IMG/VR virus record: IMGVR_UViG_3300025030_000074
Span: 1 to 64,000 of that record
Direction: 5' to 3' (one strand)
Origin: a virus
Length of the DNA stretch: 64,000 bases
A program made the position numbers and the translations under genes. Under the pieces are notes generated by a model. The model ran no database searches. It saw nothing but the letters and a program-made list of their open reading frames with translations, and was not told the origin of the DNA. Shown in pieces: positions 20,748 to 23,380 of this stretch. Within the stretch, counting starts at the first letter, position 1; every line of letters begins with the position of its first letter.

Positions 20748-21386
20748 TTAAGTTTCAAATAAAGAGGTTTGGGACTGAACTATTTTTAAACGTTTTTCTG
20801 AATCCTCAAAATAATCAGCATCTATTTCTGTTCCGGTTAAATCAAAGCCTTCTTTGTATGCCGCTATTGATGAACTTCCACTCCCTAAATGAGTATCTAA
20901 AATCAAATCTCCTTCTTTGGCATAGTTCTTTAATATCCACCTATATAAATCTATAGGCTTCTCCGTAGGATGAATTTTATTTTGTGTAAGTAGTTTTCCT
21001 CTAGAATAGTTAAACACTCTTACTGAACTATCAAAACTTGTCCAAGCAAGTTCTGCATCTGCAAAACTAAAACCTCTTTGTCCTTTATCCCATATTAACC
21101 AACATCTACTTGGAAATAAATATTGAGTAAAGTAATTGCCACCCCAGATTATCTGATTCTCAGATACTCGCATCAACTCTTTAAAATATCCTTCGGTTGG
21201 TATAGAACTATCCCATTCCTTATGCTTCCAAGCTCTGTAACCATTCTTTCTGCAAGTTTGTCCCTTAATGGCCAACTCTTGCGAAGTTGATATTCCATAA
21301 GGCGGATCAACAATGGCAAGATCAAACTTTTTATCTGCACAAGTTTTCATATACTTCATGCAGTCTATATTCATCAGTTTAATCAC
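20748..21386 (-). CDS. DNA amino-methyltransferase (beta class, DPPY)
   Basis: IVDPPY, HPTEKP, LDTHLGSGS. Confidence 0.9.
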   Translation of the reverse strand: MIKLMNIDCMKYMKTCADKKFDLAIVDPPYGISTSQELAIKGQTCRKNGYRAWKHKEWDSSIPTEGYFKELMRVSENQIIWGGNYFTQYLFPSRCWLIWDKGQRGFSFADAELAWTSFDSSVRVFNYSRGKLLTQNKIHPTEKPIDLYRWILKNYAKEGDLILDTHLGSGSSSIAAYKEGFDLTGTEIDADYFEDSEKRLKIVQSQTSLFET

Positions 21387-21652
21387 GGCTTAAGATTAAT
21401 TTTAACTTCTTCCTCCTCAATAAGCTGTACAATATTGTATCTGTTAAAGAACTCTTTTACAATTTTGTCTTTTAAAAGTTCTAATGCCTCCTCCGAATCT
21501 CTTGCAGGAATCTCATATATTGTCCCATATATCTCCCTGTTCTTTGTAACCTTGAAACTAAACCTCCCGGATTTCTTAGTCTTCTTTTCTTTATTTTCCT
21601 TATTTTCCCCCTCCTTCTTAGAAAAAAGAAAATTAGCTATCTTCTTTAACAT
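21383..21652 (-). CDS. hypothetical protein
   Basis: Overlaps both MTase genes. Confidence 0.55.
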   Translation of the reverse strand: MLKKIANFLFSKKEGENKENKEKKTKKSGRFSFKVTKNREIYGTIYEIPARDSEEALELLKDKIVKEFFNRYNIVQLIEEEEVKINLKP

Positions 21653-22533
21653 TAATCTAAAACTAATTTAAGTTGTTCCTTATATGGTTTAATTCTCTCT
21701 TCTGCAAGTTTTACATATTTATCCGATATCTCACTTCCAATATAAAACCTGTTGTTTAAAATACACATCTTTGCTACAGTTCCGCTTCCCATAAAGCAAT
21801 CGTAGACTAAATCTCCTTTAACCGTCCAGCTGATAAGATGGTCTTGTACTAATTTTTCAGGAAATATTGCAGGATGCTCAAATGCTATATTATCCTTAGT
21901 TGAAAAATTTTTTCCTGTATTATATCTCCAAATATTGTTCCTGGGTGAATATTTTGGAACAGGTTTCATATCTCTCTCTATTAACTTGCCTTCTTTAGTC
22001 CTTATTTTCGATTTACCGAACGATGTGTATCCTGCCCATCTATTCTCCTTGTCACATCTCAAAGTAGCGGTCTTGGGCTTACCTTTGCTGAAAACAAACA
22101 TATATTCAAATATTTGAGAATATCTGTTTCCATCTCTCCTTGCAGGAAAAGAAGTTCCGTTCTTCTCATATATCATAGTATCATGAATACGAAATCCTAC
22201 TTCCTGGAAATATAAAGCCTGTCTAAAACTTATTCCACTCTCTCCTCCATCTATAACAGAATCTCCTACTACCCATACTATTACACCTCCAGGTTTAGTA
22301 ACTCTATAAAGTGATTCTGCTATGTTCTCAAAATTAAACTGATAACCTTCATATGATCTAAGATCTGAATAGGGAGGAGAAGTGATTGTTAAATCTATCA
22401 ACTCCTCCGGCATATCACACATAGTTCTTAAACAATCCTCATTCTTTATAGTGTTCTTGTTTTCAGATTTCCATGCCCCTACGTAATCAACCTTCTCTAA
22501 AATCTCCGTCTTTTTTTCTATATACTCATTCAT
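21652..22533 (-). CDS. DNA amino-methyltransferase (beta class, SPPY; probably N4-C)
   Basis: TSPPY, HPAIFP, DCFMGSGT. Confidence 0.9.
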   Translation of the reverse strand: MNEYIEKKTEILEKVDYVGAWKSENKNTIKNEDCLRTMCDMPEELIDLTITSPPYSDLRSYEGYQFNFENIAESLYRVTKPGGVIVWVVGDSVIDGGESGISFRQALYFQEVGFRIHDTMIYEKNGTSFPARRDGNRYSQIFEYMFVFSKGKPKTATLRCDKENRWAGYTSFGKSKIRTKEGKLIERDMKPVPKYSPRNNIWRYNTGKNFSTKDNIAFEHPAIFPEKLVQDHLISWTVKGDLVYDCFMGSGTVAKMCILNNRFYIGSEISDKYVKLAEERIKPYKEQLKLVLD

Positions 22534-22842
22534 CTATTTAAATTGATGTTCCGTGATTACAGAAGGTACTTTATCATATCCACAAATAGGACAACTAATA
22601 AAGTTATTAAAATCCTTCTCAGCATCTTTCTTTGTAAGATACCCCTGCATTGAAGTAGATAAATCTACTACCTTAGTCCAACCACATCTCATAGGCTCCG
22701 AAGTTCCTTGTAAAGAATGATAATCCTTTGATACATAAGGATTATAGAACTCTCCTGTATCCCCTCTCTCTACTAACCAAAGATATCCTCCATCACAGTA
22801 AATATCAACTAACCTTTTATAATACTCTTTATCTTTTTTCAT
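22534..22842 (-). CDS. hypothetical protein
   Basis: 102 aa with CPIC; abuts the MTase gene. Confidence 0.6.
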   Translation of the reverse strand: MKKDKEYYKRLVDIYCDGGYLWLVERGDTGEFYNPYVSKDYHSLQGTSEPMRCGWTKVVDLSTSMQGYLTKKDAEKDFNNFISCPICGYDKVPSVITEHQFK

Positions 22843-22847
22843 AATAG

Positions 22848-23003
22848 CTGGCAGAGGAAGATTTGAACTTCCAAGAGGAGCTTATAAAAAAGGCATGCCT
22901 TAAGGGGCAATACAAGTTCATGTCTGAAGTGTAAGTACCTTTTCCTTCGCTGATTCCCCGCCTAATAGACAGTTAGGTGCGTCTTCCTTTTCGCCATCTG
23001 CCA
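22848..23003 (-). tRNA. atypical tRNA, GUC (Asp) anticodon, 88-nt variable region
   Basis: Acceptor UGGCAGA/UCUGCCA with G73. D arm GCG-AAAAGGAAGA-CGC. Anticodon arm CCUAA-CUGUCUA-UUAGG. T arm GGAAG-UUCAAAU-CUUCC. No encoded CCA. Confidence 0.8.
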
Positions 23004-23008
23004 GTATT

Positions 23009-23380
23009 TTATATGTTTTTTACTCCTAACATATTATCATAAAAAGCTTTAAAAGTTTCTAAATTGCAAAGATTTAGATGTATATACTCTTCTGCCCTTT
23101 CAACAACTTTATAATATAAATAGTTGGTACTCGCATGTTTATACTTCTTTAAATATAGAATGTCTGATAAAAAAGTAAATTCATATACGGTAATATACTT
23201 ATCCTTTTTAAAAAAAACATTGCTTTCTAAGTTAGAAGTAAATCCCTCTTTAAGCAAAAATTCTATAATGTCTTTCCTATATTTATGATCTTTAAGTCTC
23301 TTTTCATAATTTAAGCACTCTTTCTCAGTTATAAAACTCATATCTCCACTCTTAAAGACATTTTGTAGTGATGTTTCCAT
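23009..23380 (-). CDS. hypothetical protein
   Basis: 123-aa ORF directly after a promoter motif. Confidence 0.6.
   Translation of the reverse strand: METSLQNVFKSGDMSFITEKECLNYEKRLKDHKYRKDIIEFLLKEGFTSNLESNVFFKKDKYITVYEFTFLSDILYLKKYKHASTNYLYYKVVERAEEYIHLNLCNLETFKAFYDNMLGVKNI

What the first reader, a model, noticed from the sequence alone, without database searches (positions are those of the whole stretch)
22848..23003. tRNA(GUC)-like RNA with an 88-nt folded variable arm carrying a loop complementary to its own anticodon
Seen: all four tRNA arms pair cleanly. The D arm is class-II (Leu-like), the anticodon is GUC with the Asp-type G73, and U37 is abnormal. The variable region is 88 nt, several times longer than normal long arms, and it folds. 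GGGGA..AGC/GCUCCUC and AAAAGGUA/UGCCUUUU lead to a junction with two hairpins (UACA-C-UUCA-GACA-UGAA-CU-UGUA and UGCC-CCUUAA-GGCA). The GACA loop is the exact complement of UGUC in the anticodon loop, so it holds an internal Asp codon. The insertion is not at the canonical intron position. Inference: a self-masked or switchable tRNA, a decoy for anticodon nucleases or tRNA-sensing defences, or a tRNA-scaffolded ncRNA. The 4-5 bp match could be chance.
Basis: partly seen in the sequence, partly recalled or inferred. Interest (0 to 1): 0.85.

Follow-up and report, generated by a model that had tools for sequence, protein, structure and literature searches.

The report
Giant-armed aspartate-type tRNA look-alike RNA
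This groundwater crAss-like phage carries a real 156-base RNA gene shaped like an aspartate tRNA with an 88-base folded side arm; it belongs to a large family of such RNAs in Bacteroidota bacteria and their phages that I found neither in Rfam nor in the papers searched, it looks unfit for reading codons, and its job is unknown.

Summary
On the minus strand, 23003..22848, lies a complete cloverleaf with loop CUGUCUA (GUC, U37), G73 and an 88-nt variable region that folds as described.

It is not a one-off. A covariance model built without this copy finds it as the only hit in the window (85 bits, E 3e-23). Relatives occur in at least 120 IMG/VR viral contigs and in 14 of 151 sampled Bacteroidota genomes. 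In 9 of those 14 an AsnC-type regulator gene lies divergently next to it. All stems, including the arm, covary. Rfam and ARAGORN do not call the window's copy or the members checked. Earlier follow-ups of this scan found the same family on other DNA.

The self-masking idea is not supported. The GACA loop sits in the family's variable, optional hairpin, such a match arises in about 9% of shuffles, and changes in the anticodon-like loop elsewhere are not compensated.

Family-wide, G34-U35-C36, G73 and U1:A72 are kept. Position 37 is always a pyrimidine, and U33 is not kept in bacterial copies.

My best reading, at about 0.35, is a non-decoding tRNA-like carrier that AspRS charges and GatCAB can read. 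That is inference only.

The parts
22848..23003 (-). Whole tRNA-shaped RNA gene, 156 nt, 5' end at 23003 and discriminator G73 at 22848
   Evidence: The family model R3, built without it, hits exactly these coordinates at 85 bits.
22997..23003 (-). Acceptor stem 5' strand UGGCAGA (U1, G2)
   Evidence: Pairs with 22849-22855. U1:A72 and G2:C71 are kept family-wide.
22979..22994 (-). D arm: 3-bp stem GCG/CGC and loop AAAAGGAAGA, class II and Leu-like
   Evidence: It resembles the phage tRNA-Leu(taa) D arm in L132 and the tRNA-Leu row.
22961..22977 (-). Anticodon-like arm CCUAA-CUGUCUA-UUAGG (G34 U35 C36, U37, A38)
   Evidence: The loop consensus YUGUCUC is seen.
22873..22960 (-). 88-nt variable region, the giant arm
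   Evidence: Covariation of its helices P1, P1b and P2 is shown.
22955..22959 (-). P1 5' strand GGGGA, pairs with UCCUC at 22875-22879
   Evidence: Invariant in the aligned phage copies of A2. Covaries once bacterial copies are added (GGAGA/UCUCC, GGUGA/UCACC, GAAGA/UCUUC).
22949..22954 (-). 4-nt bulge AUCA plus P1b 5' strand GC, pairs with GC at 22880-22881
   Evidence: P1b covaries GC/GC, GA/UC, GG/CC.
22936..22945 (-). P2 5' strand GGAAAAGGUA, pairs with UGCCUUUUUU at 22886-22895
   Evidence: 7 of 10 pairs show double changes across the family.
22911..22933 (-). Apical hairpin 1, UACA-C-UUCA-GACA-UGAA-CU-UGUA; GACA loop at 22921-22924
   Evidence: Treated as an insertion by the family model.
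22896..22909 (-). Apical hairpin 2, UGCC-CCUUAA-GGCA; aligns weakly with the family's GGGUUGACCAC hairpin
   Evidence: posterior about 0.6.
22856..22872 (-). T arm GGAAG-UUCAAAU-CUUCC
22848..22855 (-). Acceptor 3' strand UCUGCCA plus discriminator G73; no CCA encoded (next bases CUA)
23009..23380 (-). Upstream orphan ORF (123 aa); its stop codon lies 5 nt before the RNA
22534..22842 (-). Downstream orphan ORF (102 aa); its ATG lies 5 nt after the RNA

Best explanation
The element is a functional gene for a tRNA-shaped RNA that does not decode. It is a divergent, phage-borne member of a family of 'giant-armed tRNA(GUC) look-alikes', found neither in Rfam nor in the papers searched, shared by Bacteroidota chromosomes and their phages.

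Shown: it belongs to the family. The cloverleaf and the long arm are maintained by compensatory changes. U1:A72, G2:C71, G73 and G34-U35-C36 are kept. Position 37 is always a pyrimidine, and U33 is not kept in bacterial copies.

Inferred mechanism:
1. The RNA is transcribed within the phage's minus-strand operon.
2. The host's tRNA-processing enzymes (RNase P, 3' trimming, CCA addition) cut it out, because the acceptor/T-arm elbow is canonical.
3. Host AspRS charges it with aspartate, because the strong aspartate identity nucleotides are present.
4. The pyrimidine at 37 and the bulky structured arm keep it off the ribosome.
5. It is used as an aminoacyl carrier. Its invariant U1:A72 pair is the mark that bacterial GatCAB amidotransferase reads, so conversion of the bound Asp to Asn is the most concrete proposal.
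6. The conserved base of the arm serves as a handle for an unknown partner.

The phage copy would supply or boost this host function during infection.
For: Membership: model R3, built from 23 other members, gives a single window hit at 22848-23003(-), 85 bits, E 3e-23, full length.

Structure: 96.6-98.6% of cells are paired against 46-61% in slid controls. 21-22 pairs carry double changes against 6-11 in controls. All seven helices are supported.

14 of 151 Bacteroidota genomes carry it on large chromosomal contigs.

tRNA-like handling: in large phages it sits inside tRNA arrays on the same strand, 4-10 nt from neighbouring tRNAs.

Identity marks: U1:A72 with G73 occurs in 76/82, 26/26 and 23/23 distinct members. 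Aspartate identity is G73, G34, U35, C36, C38 (PMC9976931). GatCAB recognises U1-A72 and ignores nucleotide 36, and tRNA-Asp(U1-A72, delta-U20A) is amidated almost like tRNA-Asn (PMC1635274).

Non-decoding signs: U or C at 37 in all members seen, and C33 or G33 in some bacterial copies. One carrier phage locus (L132) also has a normal tRNA-Asp with A37.

Context: a divergent AsnC-type regulator lies 120-240 nt upstream in 9 of 14 bacterial genomes. Its best NCBIfam match is AsnC. GatB is present in 14 of 14 carrier genomes.
Against: - No expression, processing or charging data exist. No RNA run holds the locus.
- The window's copy has A38, not the C38 identity nucleotide. All members have U1:A72 where bacterial tRNA-Asp has G1:C72, which is said to matter for AspRS.
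- AspRS is a class II enzyme, and from memory it approaches from the variable-loop side, so an 88-nt arm might clash. This was not modelled.
- GatB is common anyway (126 of 151), so 14 of 14 is weak (chance about 0.08).
- 12 of 14 carrier genomes have AsnB-type asparagine synthase domains, so the RNA is not needed as the only route to Asn.
- asnA is rare in the sample and was not found next to the regulator.
- One bacterial lineage has UUC instead of GUC.
- Neither this phage nor four other carrier phages encode a synthetase core or an Asn synthase, so nothing in the phage points to the pathway.
Confidence: 0.35

Rival explanations
1. Protein-binding scaffold or regulatory RNA that never carries an amino acid. 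The tRNA body only provides stability and processing. The conserved arm (P1, 4-nt bulge, GAUAAA/CUAA internal loop, GGGUUGACCAC hairpin) binds a partner, and the RNA is part of an amino-acid-responsive regulon.
For: The base of the arm and the apical hairpin are conserved in sequence, not only in pairing. The AsnC/Lrp-type regulator is the only conserved neighbour, and downstream genes vary. In this phage it stands alone, without any tRNA.
Against: This does not explain the strict retention of G73, U1:A72, G2:C71 and the GUC triplet. Short-armed members (93-123 nt) lack the apical motif but keep the body and loop.
Confidence: 0.22
2. Decoy or sponge. A tRNA-Asp look-alike soaks up a protein that recognises the tRNA-Asp anticodon loop, such as an anticodon nuclease of the type that cuts GUN-anticodon tRNAs, tRNA-guanine transglycosylase, AspRS or GatCAB. 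The pyrimidine at 37 makes it uncleavable or inert.
For: The loop equals the tRNA-Asp loop CUGUCAC with A37 changed to U. The RNA is carried by many unrelated phages, including this one, which has no other tRNA. Phage tRNAs that evade anticodon nucleases are a known theme (my knowledge, not checked here).
Against: The family is also chromosomal in 14 of 151 Bacteroidota genomes, under an amino-acid-type regulator. That fits a housekeeping or metabolic role better than anti-defence. No defence gene association was seen. The giant arm is unexplained.
Confidence: 0.18
3. One reading: a self-masked or switchable tRNA. The arm's GACA loop pairs with U33-C36 of its own anticodon loop and hides or exposes it.
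For: There is an exact 4-nt (5-nt with the closing A) complement in a hairpin loop. The 5-mer arises in only 2.2% of shuffles. In about 95% of the members parsed, a conserved hairpin contains GAC, complementary to GUC. The window's copy lacks GAC at that aligned position but has it in the other hairpin.
Against: The GACA hairpin aligns as an insertion in the family's variable hairpin position. In most members the C of GAC is predicted to be the loop-closing pair. Copies with C33, G33, C37 or UUC show no compensating change. Copies without any GAC keep the loop. The 4-mer match is an 8.9% event, found post hoc.
Confidence: 0.08
4. An ordinary decoding tRNA: either an extra tRNA-Asp isoacceptor, or a class II tRNA charged by SerRS or LeuRS that misreads Asp codons.
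For: ARAGORN calls tRNA-Asp(gtc) when the insert is removed, and calls the 93-nt relatives tRNA-Asp. The body is class II and Leu-like. Allo-tRNAs with mismatched identity exist (PMC5389517).
Against: A pyrimidine at 37 in every member, and loss of U33 in several bacterial copies, are incompatible with what is established for decoding tRNAs. A normal tRNA-Asp coexists in one carrier phage locus, L132. A73, needed for Leu identity, is absent (my knowledge). The 60-140-nt branched arm has no precedent on the ribosome.
Confidence: 0.07
5. Not functional: a decayed tRNA gene with a chance or mobile insertion.
For: Standard tRNA finders and Rfam do not call it. Fold z-scores are weak.
Against: A family model trained on other members hits at 85 bits. 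Compensatory changes occur throughout, including the insert. The sequence is identical in several groundwater and soil runs. It fits the intergenic gap exactly.
Confidence: 0.02

Closest known systems
Bacterial and phage class II tRNAs, especially tRNA-Leu (Rfam RF00005)
   Same: Full L-shape signature: U8, A14, G18 G19, T loop UUCRAAU, G53:C61. A 3-bp D stem with an AAAUUGG-type D loop almost identical to tRNA-Leu. The variable arm emerges at the class II position. Genes sit in phage tRNA arrays.
   Different: The arm is 23-140 nt with a bulge, internal loop and branched tip, instead of a 13-21 nt hairpin. G73 replaces A73. The loop is YUGUCYC with a pyrimidine at 37. The Rfam tRNA model does not call it.
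Canonical bacterial tRNA-Asp(GUC)
   Same: G34 U35 C36, G73, C38 in most members, and G2:C71. The loop equals CUGUCAC apart from position 37.
   Different: U1:A72 instead of G1:C72. A class II body and a giant arm. U or C at 37. U33 is not always kept. The window's copy has A38.
tRNA-Asn as cofactor of tRNA-dependent asparagine synthesis (non-discriminating AspRS plus GatCAB; PMC1635274)
   Same: It has the U1:A72 pair that is the single positive identity element for bacterial GatCAB. It could be charged with Asp. GatB is present in all 14 carrier genomes. There is a link to an AsnC-like regulator.
   Different: The anticodon is GUC, not GUU, so a discriminating AspRS would suffice. The product could not be used for decoding. 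No biochemical evidence exists. Carrier genomes mostly also have AsnB-type enzymes.
Non-proteinogenic tRNA-Gly isoacceptors of Staphylococcus aureus (PMC7826273)
   Same: They set a precedent for tRNA species kept away from translation and used as aminoacyl donors elsewhere (abstract read).
   Different: Those are normal-sized tRNAs with subtle T-arm changes and a working anticodon. Here the body carries a giant arm and a defective loop.
Allo-tRNAs (8/4 or 9/3 acceptor/T configuration; PMC5389517)
   Same: Metagenome-derived odd tRNAs with long variable arms, whose anticodons do not match their body identity.
   Different: This family is 7/5 (8/5 at most in the window's copy, if C23004:G22848 is counted). 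Its arm is several times longer, and its loop is nearly invariant rather than diverse.

Membership tests
Giant-armed tRNA(GUC)-like RNA family (uncatalogued; defined here by models R2 and R3) | Significant full-length match to a covariance model built from other members only | tested here: met
   R3 (23 members, window excluded) gives one hit, 22848-23003(-), 85 bits, E 3e-23, model positions 1-145.
Giant-armed tRNA(GUC)-like RNA family (uncatalogued; defined here by models R2 and R3) | U1:A72, G2:C71, G73 | tested here: met
   The window's copy has all three. Family counts are 76/82, 26/26 and 23/23.
Giant-armed tRNA(GUC)-like RNA family (uncatalogued; defined here by models R2 and R3) | Anticodon-like loop Y-U-G-U-C-Y-C with a pyrimidine at 37 | tested here: met
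   CUGUCUA: GUC and U37 are present, but position 38 is A rather than C. A38 also occurs in L343's second copy.
Giant-armed tRNA(GUC)-like RNA family (uncatalogued; defined here by models R2 and R3) | Arm architecture: P1 (GGGGA/UCCUC), 4-nt 5' bulge, 2-bp P1b, asymmetric internal loop with ..UAA on the 3' side, long P2 | tested here: met
   GGGGA / AUCA / GC / GAA...AUAA / 10-bp P2.
Giant-armed tRNA(GUC)-like RNA family (uncatalogued; defined here by models R2 and R3) | Apical hairpin GGG-N-U-W-GACCAC | tested here: inconclusive
   77 of 82 viral members have it. The window has GUAUUGCCCC at the aligned place (posterior about 0.6) and AGACA in the other hairpin.
Canonical tRNA / tRNA-Asp (Rfam RF00005; ARAGORN) | Reaches the Rfam tRNA gathering score, or is called by ARAGORN | tested here: not met
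   No hit in the window or the whole 83-kb genome, even at E<=10 locally. It is called only after in-silico removal of the insert.
Canonical tRNA / tRNA-Asp (Rfam RF00005; ARAGORN) | Purine at 37 and U33, as decoding requires (established knowledge) | tested here: not met
   U37 here. U or C at 37 in all members seen. C33 or G33 in some bacterial copies.
Canonical tRNA / tRNA-Asp (Rfam RF00005; ARAGORN) | Aspartate identity set G73, G34, U35, C36, C38, plus G1:C72 and G2:C71 (PMC9976931) | tested here: inconclusive
   G73, G34, U35, C36 and G2:C71 are met. C38 (A here) and G1:C72 (U1:A72) are not met.
tRNA-Leu (class II) | A73 discriminator and a 13-21 nt variable hairpin (my knowledge) | tested here: not met
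   G73 and an 88-nt branched arm. Only the D arm is Leu-like.
Allo-tRNA (PMC5389517) | 8/4 or 9/3 acceptor/T-stem configuration | tested here: not met
   7-bp acceptor and 5-bp T stem. An optional eighth pair, C23004:G22848, appears in the MFE fold. The base before position 1 is not kept complementary to G73 in the related copies whose upstream flank was read.
tRNA intron (group I, or archaeal bulge-helix-bulge) | Insert in the anticodon loop or with a BHB motif; an intron family match; homologues without the insert | tested here: not met
   The insert extends the variable arm. There are no Rfam intron or ribozyme hits. It is conserved and covaries across the family.
tmRNA, bacterial Y RNA (YrlA) and other catalogued tRNA-like RNAs | Match to the Rfam family; tmRNA called by ARAGORN; absence of an anticodon arm | tested here: not met
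   No match. A complete anticodon-type arm is present.
Substrate of bacterial GatCAB (works-like claim only) | U1:A72 first pair; no supernumerary 20A-type D-loop nucleotide (PMC1635274) | tested here: inconclusive
   U1:A72 is met. The D-loop rule cannot be transferred to a class II D arm.

The most novel reading that the evidence does not exclude
The family is a dedicated off-ribosome aminoacyl-carrier RNA. A discriminating AspRS charges it through G73 and GUC. GatCAB amidates it through U1:A72. A defective anticodon loop and a giant arm bar it from translation. It would therefore act as a regulated (AsnC-type) platform for making asparagine, or for handing Asp or Asn to an unknown acceptor bound by the arm. 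Phages as different as T4-like giants and this crAss-like virus would have captured it to control that step in infected cells.
Probability: 0.22. Interest if true: 0.9.

Novelty: new variant of a known kind. Interest (0 to 1): 0.72.

Why it matters
tRNA genes are among the best-catalogued genes. Yet this is a widespread, strongly conserved tRNA-derived RNA that standard tRNA finders and Rfam miss. It occurs in at least 120 viral contigs and in about 9% of sampled Bacteroidota genomes.

It keeps what aminoacylation and transamidation enzymes read, and it discards what the ribosome needs. If it is charged, it would be a new class of non-translational aminoacyl carrier with its own structured handle, and a new kind of host function carried by phages.

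Even if it is only a scaffold or a decoy, it would be the first natural tRNA I know of whose variable arm has been expanded into a branched domain. That is relevant to tRNA engineering.

This window adds two things. It is a very divergent member, the lowest-scoring full-length giant-armed hit. And it shows a crAss-like phage that carries this RNA as its only tRNA-like gene, which argues that the RNA is useful to a phage on its own, not as part of a tRNA supplement.

Tried and rejected
- **Expression:** no RNA holder is listed among 20 public runs. Contigs from four DNA runs were identical, so they gave no natural variants.
- **Flanking ORFs:** no relatives in viral contigs.
- **First searches for relatives:** the exact 24-mer of the T arm and acceptor found nothing. 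blastn of the locus and of two family members against GenBank phages found nothing.
- **Single-sequence model R1:** nothing in 10 of the 11 TerL-relative records, L007 not searched. R3 found nothing in about 100 unrelated phage tRNA-array loci.
- **First generic pattern** (Leu-type D arm, long gap, T loop): it returned mostly tandem tRNAs. Two descriptor hits, L125 and L127, were tandem tRNAs with like acceptor stems and were discarded.
- **Asparagine link:**
  - asnA occurs in only 4 of 151 genomes. None of them carries the RNA, and none has the regulator within 1.5 kb. The sample is too small to show exclusion.
  - Close regulator homologues that are not next to the RNA sit beside peptidases, transketolase and other genes, not beside an Asn enzyme.
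  - Two more distant homologues do sit beside asnB-type genes.
  - No class II synthetase core and no Asn synthase was found in this phage or in four carrier phage records.
  - The LysRS gene beside the G082 copy is an ordinary lysS.
- **Structures considered and dropped:**
  - A K-turn at the arm base: the GA/AG signature is not in register.
  - A hammerhead, twister or other ribozyme: no core motifs and no Rfam hit.
  - An intrinsic terminator inside the arm: the U run is paired in P2.
  - A pseudoknot between CCAC(C) and G6-G9: no consistent covariation, and those bases belong to the tRNA core.
  - Reading the loop as a CUA suppressor: no stem register allows it.
- **Not used:** Complex prediction and protein structure tools, because no protein partner is known.

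Full report
**What is there.**

The feature lies on the minus strand. Read 5' to 3' from 23003 to 22848 it gives:
- a 7-bp acceptor stem (UGGCAGA/UCUGCCA), then U8 and G9;
- a 3-bp D stem with loop AAAAGGAAGA;
- a 5-bp stem with loop CUGUCUA;
- an 88-nt variable region;
- a canonical T arm (GGAAG-UUCAAAU-CUUCC);
- G73, with no encoded CCA.

The RNA fills the gap between two minus-strand orphan ORFs, 5 nt after a stop codon and 5 nt before a start codon.

ARAGORN and Rfam call no tRNA anywhere in the window or in the whole 83-kb virus record. ARAGORN does call tRNA-Asp(gtc) once the insert is removed in silico.

A descriptor for a cloverleaf with a 25-200 nt insert at the variable position hits once in the real genome and never in 200 simulated genomes. 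Fold energies alone are unremarkable (z -1.2 to -1.7).

**Origin.**

The record is an IMG/VR virus estimated 87% complete. The same sequence is present, without variants, in groundwater and soil metagenome runs.

Its large terminase is about 38% identical to those of crAss-like phages. The named hosts of those relatives are Bacteroides, Flavobacterium and Cellulophaga, all Bacteroidota.

**It is a family.**

A generic pattern scan fetched a phage locus, L114, for a pattern match elsewhere in it, and my cloverleaf descriptor then found a second such RNA there. It has different stems but the same loop, CUGUCUC. Its variable region also starts GGGGA and ends CUCCUC.

Patterns built on those shared features recovered members from:
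- viral contigs;
- a Saprospiraceae MAG contig;
- many metagenome contigs.

Nineteen distinct sequences align to a consensus made of the cloverleaf plus an arm. The arm consists of:
- P1 (GGGGA/UCCUC);
- a 4-nt bulge;
- a 2-bp P1b;
- an asymmetric internal loop;
- a long P2.

On that alignment 98.6% of cells pair, against 46-61% when partners are slid. 21 pairs carry double changes, against 6-8 in the controls.

A second alignment of 23 members without the window's copy gives the same picture: 96.6% paired and 22 pairs with double changes. The model built from it (R3) finds one hit in the 64-kb window, exactly 22848-23003(-), at 85 bits and E 3e-23. That is the membership test, and it is met.

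**Breadth.**

- All 100 loci checked contain a full R3 hit of 93-171 nt, giving 82 distinct sequences.
- In large phages the gene sits inside tRNA arrays on the same strand, a few bases from its neighbours. At least one such phage locus (L132) also has a normal tRNA-Asp with A37.
- Among 151 sampled Bacteroidota genomes, 14 carry strong long hits on large chromosomal contigs, with no tRNAs called near the four of those loci scanned with ARAGORN.
- None of the members searched matches any Rfam family.
- blastn finds none in GenBank phage records.
- Four literature searches found no description.
- Earlier follow-ups of this scan described the same family on other DNA. I treated their claims as leads and re-tested them.

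**What is conserved, and what is not.**

Kept almost everywhere:
- U1:A72, G2:C71 and G73;
- the tRNA tertiary nucleotides;
- a Leu-like D arm;
- G34-U35-C36 and C38.

Never present: a purine at 37. In bacterial copies position 33 can be U, C or G, position 37 can be U or C, and one lineage has UUC.

This is the pattern expected if synthetase-type recognition is under selection and ribosomal decoding is not. The strong aspartate identity elements are G73, G34, U35, C36 and C38 (PMC9976931). Bacterial GatCAB selects its substrates by U1-A72 and is indifferent to nucleotide 36 (PMC1635274).

The window's copy keeps U1:A72, G73 and GUC, but has A38.

**Context in bacteria.**

In 9 of the 14 carrier genomes a 154-167-aa AsnC/Lrp-type regulator gene lies divergently 120-240 nt upstream. 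Downstream genes differ from genome to genome. The regulator's best NCBIfam match is E. coli-type AsnC, although below the curated cut-off.

GatB is present in all 14 carriers, but also in 126 of the 151 genomes overall.

The claim that the RNA replaces an asparagine-making enzyme is only weakly reproduced:
- asnA is rare in the sample and was not found next to the regulator;
- 12 of the 14 carriers have AsnB-type domains;
- two more distant regulator homologues do sit beside asnB-type genes.

Neither this phage nor four other carrier phages encode a class II synthetase core or an Asn synthase.

**The loop-anticodon idea.**

GACA (22924-22921) is indeed the complement of U33-C36. Four results count against a functional pairing:
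1. In the alignment to the model built without this copy, the whole GACA hairpin is an insertion at the position of an optional hairpin whose sequence is unrelated between members.
2. The family's conserved apical hairpin (GGGUUGACCAC, in 77 of 82 viral members) aligns instead, weakly, with the window's second hairpin.
3. Copies with altered loop positions show no compensating change, and copies without any GAC keep the loop.
4. A 4-mer complement in a hairpin loop appears in 8.9% of shuffles.

The triplet is nearly invariant, so covariation cannot settle the matter. It is also curious that the window's copy lacks GAC at the conserved place yet has it in the neighbouring loop. I leave the model at about 0.08.

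**Reading.**

Shown: a real, conserved, structured RNA gene, a divergent phage-borne member of a tRNA-derived family found neither in Rfam nor in the papers searched.

Inferred:
- It is processed like a tRNA.
- It is not used for decoding.
- It is probably aspartylated and possibly amidated, and it serves as an off-ribosome carrier whose arm binds a partner (about 0.35).

Rivals are a pure scaffold or regulator (0.22), a decoy for a tRNA-Asp-directed enzyme (0.18), the self-masked switch (0.08), an ordinary or mistranslating decoder (0.07) and a dead gene (0.02).

**Limits.**

- There are no expression or charging data.
- Viral members found by pattern are biased towards the fixed loop sequence.
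- The alignment of the window's apical domain is uncertain.

Noticed in passing
L082:5044-5196 (+): A separate oddity in an unrelated viral contig. It is a tRNA-Leu(UAG)-like cloverleaf with an 86-nt variable region, A73 and an encoded CCA. ARAGORN does not call it, and it is not a member of the GUC family (no R3 hit). Giant variable arms may have arisen more than once.
   Followed up: partly
L191:1501-1610 and L191:1723-1831 (genome G146): Two tandem minimal copies (about 110 nt, arm reduced to P1, internal loop and a GCC-AUUC-GGC hairpin). Their loop reads CUUUCUC (UUC, Glu-like) instead of GUC. An AsnC-type regulator lies upstream.
   Followed up: partly
L259:1229-1321 and L315:7348-7440: 93-nt relatives with only a 23-nt variable arm and A1:U72. 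ARAGORN calls them tRNA-Asp(gtc) although position 37 is U. They may be the short-armed ancestral form or a sister group.
   Followed up: partly
L142:3663-3821, L151:7078-7236: Family members that also carry a small hairpin insertion (GUUCUAGAAC) inside the D loop.
   Followed up: no
L132:7459-7532: The phage tRNA array contains a 74-nt tRNA-Leu(tag) without the long variable arm expected of bacterial tRNA-Leu (ARAGORN call).
   Followed up: no
L141:323-428: A 106-nt match to the Rfam tRNA model (37.9 bits) in a phage tRNA array. It may be another tRNA with an insert or an intron.
   Followed up: no
window 22843-23008: The RNA is wedged between two ORFs with 5-nt spacers on each side. Cutting it out by tRNA-processing enzymes would sever the mRNA between them, a punctuation-like arrangement. 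The downstream ORF has no Shine-Dalgarno sequence.
   Followed up: no
window 20748-21386 and 21652-22533 (-): Two DNA methyltransferase genes (phrog_67) lie just downstream of the RNA in the same operon.
   Followed up: no
L212:6628-7053 (genome G154): A 141-aa RF-1-domain protein (ArfB-type peptidyl-tRNA hydrolase size) lies 181 nt upstream of one of two chromosomal copies of the RNA. This is a possible link to ester hydrolysis, seen only once.
   Followed up: no
L138:104-244 and L138:836-975: One 2.1-kb metagenome contig carries two diverged copies of the RNA about 600 nt apart. One has the GGGGUUGACCAC hairpin and the other does not.
   Followed up: no
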